A stretch of DNA of 64,000 bases from Gekko japonicus (Eukaryota), in assembly GCF_001447785.1 (NCBI RefSeq), contig NW_015170905.1:866436-930435 (forward strand), given 5' to 3'. A program made the position numbers. Numbering within the stretch: position 1 is the first letter of the stretch; the number at the start of each line of letters is the position of its first letter. Below are positions 27,201 to 33,200 of this stretch, one piece after another.

Positions 27201-30200
27201 ACTATCATCCTCTACTTAGTCTTCTACTCCCATTGTCCAATGTTATTGCAGAATTGATGATAATCCAATTTTTAAGATTAAGTTCATTTTTCTATTGTTG
27301 TTTCCCTTTAAACATTAATATTTGTGGTCATCATATCCTCTGGGGAATCTAATCACAGTCTCACCGGGCAGACCAATACTTGGATATGTCCATAGATCAT
27401 ATCCTCGCTATATAAACCACTTTTAATCTTAGACTGGTCCCAAAACTTCCTTTAAAACTTGCCTTAGATTCTCCTCTTCGCTTCCTCAAAGTCTGCATAG
27501 TCTCCACATCGCTTATTATTCCCATTTGCAATTTAAAGGTAATTCTCGAATAATGTCTCTATCCTACTGCAAAGCCTTACAATTGACTCCAATGCAATGA
27601 AATTTAGTTTACAGTCTAGGATATGGTGCCAAACATTTATACTTTAGAAGAGTCTGATTGTTTCTGGTCATATGACCTAAATGACAAAGCACACAGTTCC
27701 TAAAGAAGGCTAAGACTCCATTCCGCTTTCAATCACCATTTTGGGTTTTTTTTAATTTTTAAAATTTTTGCTCGAGTCCTGAATGTTTGCTTGATTGCTT
27801 GGACGCCTCTTGAAAACTTTTTACAATAATCCAAAGTCACTTTTTTCACACACACACACCCCAATCCTGTTTCAGTACTCTGATGCATGTGCACAGGGGA
27901 GAGTTTCCTCCCACCCTCACTTTCTCGGGGCTTCAGGCGCTTTTCTGCTGTCTTCGCTTTAACCAAACTCATGATTCAACGTCGATCTCGGCATCGCCGC
28001 AGGAATCTTGCCATAAAATACAGGTAACGCTAAACCTCCAAACACTTGTCCCAGTGGGTCCCAGTGTGTGACCCTGAGTCCAATGCTGGAAACTCAGTGG
28101 CGGGACTGTTGGGGCAGGGAGTAGCCCCCCTTCGCCAGCTGGTTGCCAGAGGAAGGGCTCTCCAAACGCCCCATTGCTAGGAGCCCAAAGCAAGGGCTCC
28201 AGGGAGGATGCGGAAGGTCACACCCCCTCCCATCTGTTAGTTCATGGCACACGTCTCTCGGAGCTCTGAGAAGCCACGGCCATTGTTAGAGTGCCGAAGT
28301 CTGGTTGAATATTTATTTTAAAGAACTCTTGAATATCTATTTTAGTTTTTTTAACAAATTGTTGGTCACACAGTAAATTTTTATTCATGAACCATATTTA
28401 CCATTAACATCCTTTTACTCTGTCTTGTGATGGTAACTGCAACAATTCTTCCATCATTTGATGTATAAGTTAGTTCTGGAGATAAGCATTCTTTGACATA
28501 TATAGCTACACCCTTTTTCTTTTTTAAATCAGCAGCAAAAAATTCCCTTTTTTGCTATTAAATACTTTGTATCCTCTTTGTTAATGTGAGTTTCTTGTAT
28601 ACAAGTTATATCTGGTTTAAGTTTGTTTATTTATGTTCTATTTCTTTTGGGGGGGCTATTAAGTCCATTCACATTGACCGAGAGTATCTTGAGTTTATTC
28701 ATTGTCTCCATCTTTATTTACATTTTTTCTTGTCTTTTCTCTGTATTGGTATCTTGTGAGTATTTGTGAGGGGGTTAGGAGATATCCTGGCTTTCCTCCA
28801 AAGTGGGGTAGAGAAAGGTTTAAGTTCTAGTACCTTGAGGAGACAGGTGGCTGCTCTGTCGGCGGTGCGGGGAGCCAAAAAGGGGGTTTCCTTGGGGCAA
28901 CACCCACATATCAGGCGGTTCCTTAAAGGGACGGCTTCCCTTACTCCCCCGCAGGTGCACAGGTTTCCTACCTGGAGCTTGAACACAGTGTTAGATGCAC
29001 TATGCAAGGCCCCTTTTGAGCCTATGGCAGTATGTCCGTTGAAGGAACTCACCTTCAAGACAGTTTTCCTAGTAGGGGTTACCTCGGCCCGCAGGGTTTC
29101 TGAATTAAGGGCACTGTCGGTGCATAAAGAGCTGTGTATTTTTCATGCAGATAGAGTAGTCCTCAGACCGGATCCGGCATTCATCCCAAAAGTAAATTCA
29201 GTGTTCCATAGGGCTGAGGAGATAGTTCTTCCTGCCTTTTGTCAGAAACCTGTACACGAAAAGGAGAGACGCTGGCATCGGCTAGATGTCCGTAGAGCGT
29301 TAAGTTTCTATTTGGATAGGACCAAGGCTTTTAGGAAGTCGGAGTGCCTGTTTGTGTCCTTTAGGAAAAAGAGTCTGGGAAATCCCATTTCGGTGTCCAC
29401 CATTAGTAGGTGGGTGCGGGGCTGCATTACTGAGGCATATAAGGCTCAAGGGTTGGTGCCACCTGAAGGGGTTACTGCTCACTCAGTGAGGGGGGCGGCT
29501 ACGTCAGCAGCTTATCGAGCCTTTCCGTCCTTGGATGTGATTTGCAAAGCAGCTACCTGGAGGTCGGTTCATTCTTTTACAAGGCACTACAGGGTTGACA
29601 GGTGGGCCTCGGCTGAGGCAGCCTTTGGTAGGAGAGTACTGCAGCAGGCCTTGTAAACACCGGAAATCGTTGGACCCACCCTGGGGAGGTACTGCTATTT
29701 TATGTCCCAGGAGTAAGGAGTCAAAGGACTGCCCCACTCCAAGGACCACCGGAGAACGGAAGATTTTATTCACTTACCGTGAAGCTTCCTTCTCGGTGGT
29801 CCTGGAGTGGGGCAGTCCTCCCCACCCGTTTGGAGGAACGAGTTCCGGTGGTTATCAAGGCCTGGTGATTAGCCGGGGATGTGAAGTGTGCCTGTATTGT
29901 TTTGTCTCTTCCTGGGTCTAGAACCCAGACTGGTCCTGTGGAACTGTTTATTTTTTCCTGTGTTGTTGGTTGAATAAAGTTCTTCTTGATTCATTAATAC
30001 CCGTGGTTGTTCCCCTTTATGGTTGGGGGGCAGAAGGGGTTCTTTTTTTGTATTCCTTATATGATATAGGTGTGGAATCGATTAGGGGAGGAGCTTGGCT
30101 TTGATTTCGACTGGTTGTCTACAGGACTAGCCCCTCCCCTCCAGGATCGAAAGTCAGCCGGCCCTGCGTTGGATGGGGGAGGGGCAAGTCCCAGGAGTAA

Positions 30201-33200
30201 GGAGTCAAAGGACTGCCCCACTCCACACACACCCCAATCCTGTTTCAGTACTCTGATGCATGTGCACAGGGGAGAGTTTCCTCCCACCCTCACTTTCTCG
30301 GGGCTTCAGGCGCTTTTCTGCTGTCTTCGCTTTAACCAAACTCATGATTCAACGTCGATCTCGGCATCGCCGCAGGAATCTTGCCATAAAATACAGGTAA
30401 CGCTAAACCTCCAAACACTTGTCCCAGTGTGCGACCCTGAGTCCAATGCTGGAAACTCAGTGGCGGGACTGTTGGGGCAGGGAGTAGCCCCCCTTCGCCA
30501 GCTGGTTGCCAGAGGAAGGGCTCTCCAAACGCCCCATTGCTAGGAGCCCAAAGCAAGGGCTCCAGGGAGGATGCGGAAGGTCACACCCCCTCCCATCTGT
30601 TAGTTCATGGCACACGTCTCTCGGAGCTCTGAGAAGCCACGGCCATTGTTAGAGTGCCGAAGTCTGGTTGAATATTTATTTTAAAGAACTCTTGAATATC
30701 TATTTTAGTTTTTTTAACAAATTGTTGGTCACACAGTAAATTTTTATTCATGAACCATATTTACCATTAACATCCTTTTACTCTGTCTTGCGATGGTAAC
30801 TGCAACAATTCTTCCATCATTTGATGTATAAGTTAGTTCTGGAGATAAGCATTCTTTGACATATATAGCTACACCCTTTTTCTTTTTTAAATCAGCAGCA
30901 AAAAATTCCCTTTTTTGCTATTAAATACTTTGTATCCTCTTTGTTAATGTGAGTTTCTTGTATACAAGTTATATCTGGTTTAAGTTTGTTTATTTATGTT
31001 CTATTTCTTTTGGGGGGGCTATTAAGTCCATTCACATTGACCGAGAGTATCTTGAGTTTATTCATTGTCTCCATCTTTATTTACATTTTTTCTTGTCTTT
31101 TCTCTGTATTGGTATCTTGTGAGTATTTGTGAGGGGGTGAAGTTTGTTCTTTTTTTCCCCTTTAGTCCGTCCTTTCTTTTTAGCTTCTTCTGCTTTGGGG
31201 TCATTTGTTTCTTCCTCATTTTCACTCTCCTCCTCTTCTTCTCCTTGCCATCCTACGTTTTCTCCAAACCTTTCCAGAAATTCTTTCCTTTAAATATTGA
31301 ATCAATTTTATGCCTTCGACCTTGGTAGTTGAATAATATTACTTCTGGAAATAACCATCTATATGAAATTCCATTTGACTGTAACAGATTGGTTAATACA
31401 GAGTAACTTTGCCTTTTTTCCCTAACCCTCCATGGCACATCCTTTAAAATTTTAATCTCTTTATCTTGTATAATCACTTTAGTGTTATTTGAGGCTTTCA
31501 GTATTTTATCTTTCATGTATCTTCTGTTAAATTTAATGTGGACCTCCCTAGGTATTTTATTCCTCCTTGCATAAGAGGTATTTTTTCCTATAGATAGCTT
31601 TTATTTTACGTTCCAGCTCTTCATAGTTTTCTATATTCAGTTATTGTGATAAGTTCTGTATTAAGTCCTCTTTCAGACTTTTCTCTAGAGTTTCAGGGAT
31701 GTTTTGGCACCTTAAGACCAAGGAAGCTTTGTCCATTTCCAAAGTCATCAATGTCTCTTCCATTCTTTCCACTTTTTGTTTTACTTCTTGTACCTCTTGA
31801 TCTACATCTTGTAGTTTGTCTTCTATATTATTACATGCTAAAGCAATTTTTAATATCTCTTGCTTATTTTCGGTTATTTGTTTTTTATATCTTCTCTTTC
31901 TGTTGTAATCTATTGTGCTATGTTTTCTGTTTTTGTTTGTATAGGTTCTAATTCCTTTTTAACCATTTCTCCCATTTTTGTTTGTATTGGTTCAATTTCT
32001 TTCCTAATTAGTTCTGGCAGTGTTGTATTTACTGTATTTTTAATAGTTTGTGCCATACATTCTTGTATGAGCATTTTAAAGTCTTTTATTGACATCTGTG
32101 CCATATTTGTAGTGTTAAATTTGAGTTGTGTTTGGGCTCTTGTTTGTCCCGGTGAGGTTAGGGATGATTTTCTGGAACTACTAGCCATTGTTATTATTTA
32201 GTACTATGATTCTATAGTGCTTTTCTAGTATAGTGTCCTCTCCTTTCTTTATATTCTTATCACAAAGTTTGTTCTTATGTTAAAAAGCAGTATTAGTTAA
32301 AGTAATGCCTAGTTGCTTTGTCTTGTTTTTTGTTTAAATTTCACAGTCTGGCTGTCTTTATTTCATATGTCTCTTCTCCTGTCTTTCCTCTTTCTCTTTC
32401 TGCTGCACTTCCATTCTCTTTAATGTGTCGCGTCCCCTTCTCTCTCCTCCTGTGTTGTATTACACCCTCTTCCTCACTCGTCTCAAGTTTCACGGTGTCA
32501 TGGTTTCATTTTTCCTTCCCCTCGTCTTTTCTCCTAAGTTTTCTGTGGAACATTACCTAAAAGGTAAGCAACCAAATGAGAAAGAAGGCTGTAATATATC
32601 TAATCTCTGAATGTTTTAAATGCTTTTACCTCTTATTATTACCCTCTTTATTTTTAAATTTGCCTAGTCATCCTGCTAATGGCCGCTTTAAAGCCTTCCC
32701 TTCCCTTCCTTCTTTTCCCTTTATACTGGCTTGGGGTAATATTAGTTTACTCAATGGTCCTGTAATATATATTGTCTCTTCGACAAATGAATAAGCTTTA
32801 AAGAAACTTAGCTTCGTTGGAGCTTTTGTTTTCTGTATTTTAAAGACTCTATTGGTCCTGTAGAGTTCATCTTGTGTAGTCAAGCGTCCCTCCTCCACCT
32901 TCCGCATAGAAACAGTCCCAAATTCACCAAGAAGGTTGCCATTCTATCTTGGGTTTTGGAGCAAGCTTCTTGCTTTCGGTTTTCCCCTCCAAGGGAGTAC
33001 CTCTGAGGGTGTAAGAATTTTCCTAGAAGGCTGTGGGAAAATTCAGCAGATGAGCAGCTGCCGCTACAAGCATCTGCTCTCGGTGAGCCCCCAAGACTCA
33101 GGCTTTCTGATACCAAATCTCTCTATCTCAAATGTAATTAATGAACTGGAGCCGGCATTCATACACAAACAATTTGAGGAACCTAACAGAAAAGCTGAAC

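What the first reader, a model, noticed from the sequence alone, without database searches (positions are those of the whole stretch)
27851..31138. Uninterrupted DIRS tyrosine recombinase captured between ~920-bp direct duplications of host-locus DNA
Seen: structure A-[DIRS fragment]-A'. A (925 bp) and A' (915 bp) differ only by a 10-bp indel and two CpG transitions. The 1.45-kb insert starts inside the YR gene and stops just before the DIRS terminus, with short microhomology (ca at the right junction, possibly ggggt at the left). The YR frame has no stops and keeps R-K-HxxR-W-Y, while the nearby DIRS at 16.7-20.4 kb is heavily decayed. Established: DIRS elements integrate through circular intermediates without long TSDs. 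Inference: this is not normal DIRS transposition. It could be a template-switch (MMBIR/FoSTeS) duplication with a templated insertion from a young DIRS copy, or homologous integration of an A+DIRS extrachromosomal circle. Either way it implies a recently active DIRS family in this genome.
Basis: partly seen in the sequence, partly recalled or inferred. Interest (0 to 1): 0.75.

Follow-up and report, generated by a model that had tools for sequence, protein, structure and literature searches.

The report
Tandem duplication holding a DIRS fragment
A 925-base stretch of old transposon debris in a reptile-like genome was recently duplicated in tandem, with a 1.4-kb piece of a young DIRS retrotransposon trapped at the joint; it looks like a scar of DNA break repair, not a transposition.

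Summary
A (27851-28775) and A' (30224-31138) are direct copies that differ by one 10-bp indel and two C/T changes at CpG. Between them lies X (28776-30223). X carries a stop-free tyrosine-recombinase (YR) frame lacking about 38 N-terminal residues, an ICR hairpin, and a right terminal region that stops about 50 nt short of the end seen in the older copy.

A is not anonymous host DNA. It is the junction of two older insertions: the right 446 bp of a ~1.5-kb retrocopy, its 21-nt target-site duplication, and 478 bp of a minus-strand LINE. L-A and A'-R are each colinear, so L-A-R was the ancestral order.

Best reading (0.55): a one-step break-repair or replication-restart tandem duplication with DIRS-derived filler DNA at the joint. 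It has no function.

X ends exactly at the 17-nt motif after which, in the published model, DIRS termini are rebuilt from the ICR. This hints at a trapped replication intermediate (probability 0.2).

An assembly artefact (0.15) cannot be excluded without reads. No eukaryotic genome collection was available, so the donor and copy number stay unchecked.

The parts
27851..28775 (.). A: left copy of the 925-bp direct duplication. It comprises 446-447 bp of the GC-rich end of a retrocopy plus 478 bp of LINE, including one copy of the 21-nt flanking repeat.
   Evidence: identity to A'; composition
28776..30223 (+). X: 1448-bp fragment of a young DIRS1-like retrotransposon. It holds a YR lacking its N-terminus, the ICR, and a right terminal region lacking the last ~50 nt.
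   Evidence: CpG o/e 0.45
28784..29656 (+). Tyrosine-recombinase reading frame (fragment, with its stop codon). It has no internal stop, about 38 N-terminal residues are missing, and there is no ATG near its start.
29704..29819 (+). Internal complementary region (ICR): a near-perfect hairpin with 17-nt motif arms at 29725-29741 and 29803-29819.
   Evidence: I1, D1; DNA fold -41.4 kcal/mol, z -8.9, 0 of 200 shuffles as good; 85% column identity to the old copy's ICR
29820..30225 (+). Right terminal region of the DIRS fragment. It ends with the third copy of the 17-nt motif (30209-30225). The ICR-complementary extremity is absent.
   Evidence: compared with the old copy
30224..31138 (.). A': right copy of the duplication (915 bp), colinear on its right with the LINE inter-ORF region and ORF1.
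26777..28297 (-). ~1.5-kb insertion inside the LINE ORF2, flanked by a 21-nt direct repeat (26756-26776 / 28298-28318, and again at 30661-30681 in A'). It is probably a LINE-mediated retrocopy in minus orientation; the parent is unknown. Its right 447 bp form the GC-rich half of A.
   Evidence: 3 matches, 19/21 identity, 0 expected; both flanks map to the same part of ORF2
21063..32197 (-). L1-like LINE (ORF1 and EN+RT ORF2), broken. ORF2 lies in 4-6 pieces over 3 frames, with 2-8 stops depending on the guide protein. It has one internal deletion, two nested insertions and the A-X-A' rearrangement.
20493..34663 (+). copia-like LTR retrotransposon split by the LINE nest. gag lies on the left; protease-barrel, integrase and SH3 domains lie on the right.
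18888..20426 (+). Older DIRS1-like remnant: decayed YR (2 frames, 6-12 stops by guide), ICR, and a complete right terminus.
   Evidence: CpG o/e 0.13-0.14

Best explanation
A-X-A' is a local tandem duplication of 925 bp with 1448 bp of filler DNA at the joint. It was made in one event while a broken or stalled chromosome was repaired.

**Proposed steps (inferred).**
1. A break or collapsed fork arose in or next to A, inside an old LINE.
2. The 3' end(s) were extended on the sister copy past the break, so both ends carried A.
3. The extended ends did not anneal. Instead, one end paired by up to 5 nt with a DIRS DNA molecule and copied it from the middle of the YR gene to the 17-nt boundary motif near its right end.
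4. The new end then paired by 2 nt (CA) with a (CA)n run at the start of A, and synthesis or ligation went on.

**Result.** The product is inert. The YR lacks about 38 N-terminal residues, a start codon and a promoter, and no RT, gag or left terminus is present.

**Shown.** The structure, the colinearity of L-A and A'-R, the identity and youth of X, and the position of both joints.

**Inferred.** The repair pathway (microhomology-mediated end joining of a failed strand-annealing intermediate, or FoSTeS/MMBIR-type template switching) and the nature of the DIRS template.
For: 1. **Head-to-tail copies** at 99.8% substitution identity with X exactly between them.
2. **A is unique, composite locus DNA.** It spans the junction of a retrocopy and a LINE, including one copy of a 21-nt flanking repeat (3 matches in the window, 0 expected). 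Both flanks of the retrocopy map to the same part of LINE ORF2.
3. **Ancestral order.** L + A-left form one insertion and A'-right + R form one LINE, so L-A-R is ancestral. The ends of A fall at no transposon boundary.
4. **Short microhomology at the joints.** CA at the right is shown by the ICR copy running through 30225. At the left it is no more than 5 nt.
5. **X is cut at both ends**, so it did not enter by its own recombinase.
6. **Precedents.**
   - Germline tandem duplications of 100 bp-10 kb (median ~1 kb) with microhomology and occasional templated insertions (Kamp et al. 2021, PMC8654963, passages read).
[quoted passage not shown] 2015, PMC4516963, abstract read).
   - Capture of retrotransposon cDNA at breaks in yeast (Yu et al. 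2024, PMC11372161, abstract read).
Against: - No reads, no second individual and no eukaryotic genome collection were available. Neither the reality of the duplication nor the donor could be checked.
- A 1.45-kb filler is long for polymerase-theta-type templated insertions as I recall them. The passages I read give no size.
- The left microhomology is unknown.
- A/A' differences (0.2% plus one indel) fit two alleles as well as two young paralogues.
- The pathway is inferred from the product alone.
Confidence: 0.55

Rival explanations
1. Assembly artefact. Two haplotypes of one locus, one with a DIRS insertion left of A and one without, were laid in tandem. The real genome would then have one A, and the apparent cut inside the YR gene would be the false join.
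For: - A and A' differ by 2 substitutions in 915 sites plus a 10-bp indel, a level usual between alleles.
- False duplications are common in vertebrate assemblies (recalled; no paper read here).
- X belongs to a repeat family, which tangles assembly graphs.
Against: - There is no gap at either joint. The only N run in the window lies about 30 kb away.
- The A-end to mid-YR join shares at most 5 nt, so an overlap-based assembler had nothing to join on.
- The differences are CpG transitions and a 10-bp unit, not homopolymer-type read errors.
Confidence: 0.15
2. Homologous integration of an extrachromosomal circle made of X + A. A DIRS fragment first lay next to a single A. The segment X+A was copied out as a ~2.4-kb circle closed by microhomology, and the circle recombined with A on a chromosome.
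For: - The product of a single crossover between such a circle and A is exactly A-X-A'.
- The unit length of 2373 bp is in the size range of small extrachromosomal circles (recalled).
Against: - Only one X is present, so the recipient chromosome must have lacked X while the donor carried it. That adds steps: prior capture, circle formation, and integration into the other allele.
- No trace of a simple X-A or A-X allele is available.
- Nothing in the window distinguishes one joint as older than the other.
Confidence: 0.1
3. A full-length DIRS inserted by its own recombinase at 27850/27851, and a later local rearrangement replaced its 5' part with a copy of A.
For: - X abuts A' near (not at) the natural right terminus.
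- DIRS insertion makes no target-site duplication (Piednoel et al. 2011, PMC3266345, passages read), so the L|A site would look unchanged.
Against: - The right end lacks the ~50-nt ICR-complementary extremity that the older copy keeps, so the joint is not a recombinase joint.
- It needs two events.
- It does not by itself explain why A was copied.
Confidence: 0.07
4. LINE-mediated retrocopy of a DIRS transcript (5'-truncated, like a processed pseudogene) with an unusually long target-site duplication.
For: - X is truncated at the 5' side of the DIRS sense strand, as LINE-made copies are.
- It sits in a region where a LINE-type retrocopy with a 21-nt duplication already exists.
Against: - There is no poly(A) or A-rich tail at either end of X.
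- X runs about 250 nt past the only AATAAA in its 3' region (read).
- A 925-bp duplication is far outside the 21-nt duplication seen next door.
Confidence: 0.03

Closest known systems
DIRS1-like retrotransposons of vertebrates (for example AcDIRS1/AcDIRS2 of Anolis carolinensis; Piednoel et al. 2011, PMC3266345, passages and Table 3 text read)
   Same: - The order YR, then ICR, then right terminus.
- A two-part ICR whose arms share a motif of at least 10 nt with the terminus.
- In the older copy, a 54-nt extremity complementary to the right ICR. The paper gives 26 nt of divergent ITR plus 26-28 nt of right extension for Anolis.
- YR relatives are found in squamates.
   Different: - Only 1448 of about 6000 bp are present.
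- There is no gag, RT/RNase H/methyltransferase or left terminus.
- The ICR-complementary extremity is missing.
- The best protein identity to any relative found is 67%, so the family itself was not identified.
Tandem duplications with microhomology and templated insertions from failed strand annealing joined by polymerase-theta end joining (Kamp et al. 2021, PMC8654963, passages read); FoSTeS/MMBIR template switching (recalled; no paper read here)
   Same: - Head-to-tail duplication of about 1 kb.
- Junction microhomology of 2 to at most 5 nt.
- Foreign sequence at the joint.
   Different: - The filler is 1.45 kb and comes from a mobile element rather than from break-flanking sequence.
- The pathway and the genetic background are unknown here.
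[quoted passage not shown] 2015, PMC4516963, abstract read; Yu et al. 2024, PMC11372161, abstract read)
   Same: A truncated retroelement sequence sits at a repair joint with no integrase or recombinase signature.
   Different: - Those events are simple insertions; here the flanks are duplicated over 925 bp.
- No DIRS case came up among the listed titles of my searches.

Membership tests
Tyrosine recombinase (Cre / phage-integrase superfamily) | Sequence similarity to solved or curated family members | tested here: met
   - A profile of 38 relatives plus the window protein hits Cre/Tre in 17 of 21 PDB matches, at E 1e-7 to 7e-7, in two stretches. The 16-sequence profile gave 17 of 19, with best E 7.6e-4.
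- 14 of 16 alignment members match PF00589 (best 7.3e-7). The window protein itself does not, at E up to 1, and alone it hits no PDB chain.
Tyrosine recombinase (Cre / phage-integrase superfamily) | Catalytic R...K...HxxR...W/H...Y in order | tested here: met
   - All six residues are present in the window frame. They are shared by 82, 86, 79, 76, 76 and 77 of 86 relatives.
- The HxxR, W and Y columns align with the H-x-x-R, W and Y of Cre in the C-terminal stretch.
- The first R and the K were not aligned to a solved structure. That these positions are Cre's catalytic residues is recalled.
Tyrosine recombinase (Cre / phage-integrase superfamily) | Two-domain fold (N-terminal core-binding plus C-terminal catalytic) | not tested
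About 38 N-terminal residues are absent in any case.
DIRS1-like retrotransposon (complete element) | gag, RT/RNase H/methyltransferase and YR genes | tested here: not met
   Only the YR fragment is present in X. No other retroelement domain lies on the + strand between 28776 and 30223. X is a fragment, not an element.
DIRS1-like retrotransposon (complete element) | ICR complementary to the termini | tested here: inconclusive
   - The ICR hairpin is present.
- In the older copy the right extremity is 94% complementary to the right ICR over 54 nt.
- In X that extremity and the whole left terminus are missing, so complementarity can be shown only for the 17-nt motif.
DIRS1-like retrotransposon (complete element) | Inverted terminal repeats | tested here: not met
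   No inverted copy of 29820-30225 exists in 26-33 kb or elsewhere in the window.
Ngaro/PAT-type split direct repeats (A1-genes-B1-A2-B2) | The long direct repeats belong to the element itself | tested here: not met
   A contains a LINE fragment, a 21-nt flanking repeat and part of an unrelated retrocopy. The repeats are therefore locus DNA.
Tandem duplication with templated or filler insertion | Head-to-tail copies with short microhomology at both joints | tested here: met
   The right joint shares 2 nt. The left joint shares at most 5 nt; the exact number is unknown.
Tandem duplication with templated or filler insertion | Insertion traceable to a donor elsewhere in the genome | not testable with these tools
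   No eukaryotic genome collection was on hand. The only other DIRS in the window is 68% identical over 466 columns, so it is not the donor.
LINE-mediated retrocopy (for X) | 3' poly(A) or LINE tail and a short target-site duplication | tested here: not met
   There is no tail at either end of X, and the duplication is 925 bp.

The most novel reading that the evidence does not exclude
X is a trapped replication intermediate of a DIRS element, not a copy of a chromosomal DIRS.

**The coincidence.** The DIRS sequence stops, to within the 2-nt CA overlap, at the 3' end of the 17-nt motif that recurs in both ICR arms (30209-30225, 29725-29741 and, inverted, 29803-29819). The only part missing on this side is the ~50-nt extremity that the older copy keeps and that is the inverse complement of the right ICR.

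**Why it matters.** In the Cappello / Goodwin-Poulter model, as retold by Malicki et al. 2020 and Piednoel et al. 2011, these extremities are not in the transcript. They are rebuilt when the terminal fragment anneals to the ICR and is extended. A sense strand ending in this motif is what that model predicts just before the ICR-templated step.

**If so,** this locus preserves a natural snapshot of that intermediate in a vertebrate. It would also show that free DIRS DNA (linear, as Malicki et al. found in Dictyostelium) serves as a template or filler in germline break repair.
Probability: 0.2. Interest if true: 0.6.

Novelty: new member of a known kind. Interest (0 to 1): 0.35.

Why it matters
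**The ordinary reading.** This is one more repair scar in a transposon graveyard. Its use is as a dated marker that a DIRS1-like family had an intact recombinase gene shortly before the event. A and A' differ at 0.2% of sites, both at fast-mutating CpG; at a recalled neutral rate of about 1e-9 per site per year that is roughly a million years or less.

**The more interesting point.** The DIRS replication cycle has been examined experimentally only in Dictyostelium, as far as the papers I read show. The step in which the termini are rebuilt on the ICR has never been seen directly. A fragment that ends at the nucleotide where that step should start suggests a purely descriptive test: a genome-wide census of where truncated DIRS pieces end.

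**For genome annotation.** The case is a warning that an open, motif-complete recombinase frame need not mark an element or a gene.

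Tried and rejected
**Searches that gave nothing useful.**
I used stop-free stretches instead.
- The window YR gave no Pfam family with 0.05 as the E-value limit, only one chance-level match (DUF7047, E 0.11) with the limit at 1, and no PDB chain by phmmer. 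Only profiles of relatives reached Cre.
- A word-based search for long LINE ORF2 relatives gave 2 weak hits of about 400 aa. The all-against-library search supplied usable ORF2 guides.
- The search for the older DIRS's polymerase found nothing. Pfam on 31 + strand stretches of 16.7-18.9 kb also found nothing relevant.
- Rfam over 26.5-32.5 kb gave 3 microRNA-family matches far below their gathering scores (22.8-29.4 bits against 79-100), all on the ICR hairpin. I take them as chance likeness of a hairpin.
- A PDB search with an 82-aa frame from the GC-rich half of A hit only designed repeat proteins with no scoring stretch. I rejected it as low-complexity noise.

**Readings rejected.**
- Ngaro-like split direct repeats, because A holds LINE sequence and a target-site duplication.
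- LINE-made retrocopy of X, because there is no tail.
- The GC-rich half of A as a DIRS terminus, because it has no inverted or direct match to X or to the old copy and lies inside a 21-nt-flanked insertion.

**Not used or not available.**
That collection holds only bacteria and archaea, so a blank would say nothing.
- The closed collections (metagenome contigs, viral contigs) stayed unchecked.
- Paper supplements were not opened. Those of Piednoel 2011 and Malicki 2020 may hold terminus alignments that bear on the boundary motif.

Full report
**1. The observation**

The structure A-X-A' is real in the sequence.
- blastn aligns 27851-28775 with 30224-31138 at 98.7% over 925 columns, with 2 mismatches and 1 gap. 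The repeat finder reports exact blocks of 206 and 300 nt.
- The differences are a 10-bp tandem unit present only in A, and two C/T changes in CpG context. In both, A carries TG and A' carries CG.
- No other copy of A, and no other close copy of X, exists in the 64 kb.
- The single N run of the window lies about 30 kb from the finding. It was left as it is.

**2. What X is**

X (28776-30223) holds a stop-free stretch of 298 codons.
- It is the longest in the window; the next is 219 codons. None of 20000 shuffles stayed open, and composition gives P about 4e-7.
- A search of the large protein collection found 146 relatives at E up to 1e-3 among 4362 candidates. The best was 67% identical in an unnamed record. 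The named ones are mostly from snakes and lizards, at 57% or less, with weaker hits in turtles, amphibians and a fish.
- I therefore take the window for a squamate-like genome, not a human one.
- Relatives are 330-360 aa. Homology in X begins at residue 39 of the two 330-aa relatives. The frame lacks about 38 or more N-terminal residues and has no ATG near its start.

The protein is a tyrosine recombinase, but the window sequence alone does not show it.
- Alone it matches no Pfam family with 0.05 as the E-value limit; with the limit at 1 its only match is DUF7047 at E 0.11, a chance-level hit. It matches no PDB chain.
- 14 of 16 aligned members match PF00589.
- A profile of 38 sequences hits Cre/Tre in 17 of 21 PDB matches at about 1e-7. 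The family's HxxR, W and Y columns fall under those of Cre.
- The six candidate catalytic residues are kept in 76-86 of 86 relatives.
- A fold-level test could not be run.

Downstream of the stop codon lie two features.
- A hairpin at 29704-29819: DNA fold -41.4 kcal/mol, z -8.9, with 0 of 200 shuffles as good. It aligns with the ICR of the older copy at 85% column identity.
- A terminal region that ends with a 38-nt exact copy of the hairpin's left part.

**3. Where X stops**

In the older copy, the stretch homologous to X's last bases is followed by 54 nt that are 94% complementary to the right half of its ICR (I1). This matches the layout described for Anolis DIRS1-like elements: 26 nt of 'divergent ITR' plus a 26-28-nt right extension, both dictated by the right ICR. 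It also matches the reported motif of at least 10 nt, shared by both ITRs and both ICRs, at the boundary (Piednoel et al. 2011, PMC3266345, passages read).

X has that motif three times: 29725-29741, 29803-29819 inverted, and 30209-30225 (5 matches in the window counting the older copy, 0.02 expected). X ends with its third copy, so the whole ICR-dictated extremity is missing.

**4. What A is**

A is not anonymous host DNA. I mapped six LINE ORF2 guide proteins onto the window. Four of the six carry both the endonuclease and the RT domain.
- They map a minus-strand L1-like LINE from about 32.2 kb to 21.06 kb.
- Its ORF1 lies right of A' (weak Pfam hit, E 0.004, below the curated cut-off).
- Its ORF2 is in 4-6 pieces over three frames, with 2-8 stops depending on the guide.
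- The right 478 bp of A and of A' are the start of this ORF2 plus about 75 bp upstream of it.

The left 446-447 bp of A (GC 0.56) are the right end of a ~1.5-kb insertion, 26777-28297.
- It is flanked by a 21-nt direct repeat (19 of 21 identical; 3 matches in the window including the one in A'; 0 expected).
- Both flanks map to the same part of ORF2.
- On the minus strand an AATAAA lies 25-30 nt from its end (read). I take it for a LINE-made retrocopy of unknown parent.

The LINE itself splits a copia-like element (gag 20493-20894; protease-barrel, integrase and SH3 domains 33272-34663).

It follows that L + A-left form one insertion and A'-right + R form one LINE. L-A-R was the ancestral order, and A-X-A' arose later. 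The ends of A fall at no transposon boundary: one lies in a (CA)n run inside the retrocopy, the other in the LINE's inter-ORF spacer.

**5. Age**

- CpG o/e is 0.45 in X, 0.13 in the older DIRS and 0.22 in the window.
- The older copy's recombinase gene lies in two frames in 9 of 10 guide alignments, with 6-12 stops. X has none: in 2 of 10 alignments the piece merely runs over the frame's own stop codon.
- X was therefore copied from an intact or nearly intact source not long ago.
- If A and A' are paralogues, the event itself is recent.

**6. Mechanism**

Own-recombinase insertion is excluded for two reasons.
- The piece is cut at both ends.
- DIRS insertion makes no target duplication (PMC3266345, passage read).

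The simplest route is one event: a tandem duplication with filler.
- In C. elegans germlines, tandem duplications of 100 bp-10 kb (median ~1 kb) with microhomology and occasional templated insertions arise when ends extended on the sister fail to anneal and are joined by polymerase-theta end joining (Kamp et al. 2021, PMC8654963, passages read).
- Template-switch models (FoSTeS/MMBIR; recalled) predict the same product.
- Retroelement sequences and reverse-transcribed products are captured at breaks in mouse zygotes and yeast (PMC4516963 and PMC11372161, abstracts read).

I put this at 0.55.

It needs a prior X-beside-A allele and a recipient without X, because only one X is present. I put it at 0.10.

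An assembly artefact stays at 0.15.
- Against it: no gap, no overlap to join on, and differences that look like mutations.
- For it: the differences are equally well allelic, and I had no reads.

**7. The bolder reading**

In the model for DIRS-1, the transcript lacks most of the left and almost all of the right terminal repeat. The extremities are rebuilt by annealing to the ICR followed by synthesis. The extrachromosomal cDNA is single-stranded and mostly linear (Malicki et al. 2020, PMC7192593; abstract, introduction and discussion read).

A sense strand ending in the boundary motif can pair with the inverted motif at 29803-29819 (17 of 17). It is what the model predicts just before that step. 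X ends there to within the 2-nt overlap.

This could be chance. It could also reflect a polymerase falling off a chromosomal template at a hairpin-prone site. I give the 'trapped intermediate' reading 0.2.

**8. Limits**

- No eukaryotic genome, read set or second individual was available, so the donor, copy number, exact left microhomology and allelic state are all unchecked.
- The left part of the older DIRS (16.7-18.9 kb) is unverified.
- Searches of the paper library showed no DIRS fragment at a duplication joint among the listed titles (12, 12, 12 and 10 titles listed of 13, 116, 6494 and 45 papers found). That is weak evidence that none is in print.
- Supplementary files were not seen.

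Noticed in passing
window 20493-20894 and 33272-34663 (+): A copia-like LTR retrotransposon is split in two by about 12 kb of nested insertions. Retrotran_gag_2 lies on the left (E 5.6e-16). Pol_BBD, gag_pre-integrase, rve and SH3_retrovirus lie on the right (E down to 5e-20). Its LTRs were not looked for.
   Followed up: partly
window about 21063-32197 (-): An L1-like LINE with ORF1 and an endonuclease+RT ORF2, heavily broken: 4-6 pieces, 3 frames, 2-8 stops by guide protein, and one internal deletion. A further insertion of roughly 2.9 kb of unknown nature sits inside its RT domain (about 23.0-25.9 kb, strong G-over-C skew).
   Followed up: partly
window 26777-28297 (probably minus orientation): A ~1.5-kb insertion with a 21-nt flanking repeat and an AATAAA near its minus-strand 3' end. 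One end is GC-rich and CpG-rich, the rest AT-rich. It looks like a fairly young LINE-made retrocopy of an unknown transcript (CpG o/e 0.46-0.49). No Pfam, Rfam or meaningful PDB match.
   Followed up: partly
window 16323-16733 (-) and 50916-51338 (-): Two further reverse-transcriptase remnants on the minus strand (RVT_1, E 3.9e-17 and 1.7e-4). They are unrelated to the DIRS copies.
   Followed up: no
window 31930-32019: A 45-nt unit occurs twice in tandem (76% identity) inside the coiled-coil part of the LINE ORF1, giving a repeated 15-residue peptide.
   Followed up: no
window about 59199-59369 and 62045-62215 (-): Short translated matches (38-40% over 57 residues) to the 3' part of the LINE at 21.1-22.4 kb. 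They are probably a second, older copy of a related LINE.
   Followed up: no
whole window: No host-gene protein domain turned up in any of the stop-free stretches scanned: 131 + 129 + 133 stretches, at length cut-offs of 36, 40 and 72 aa. The window looks like a gene-poor pile of retroelements with overall CpG o/e 0.22.
   Followed up: partly
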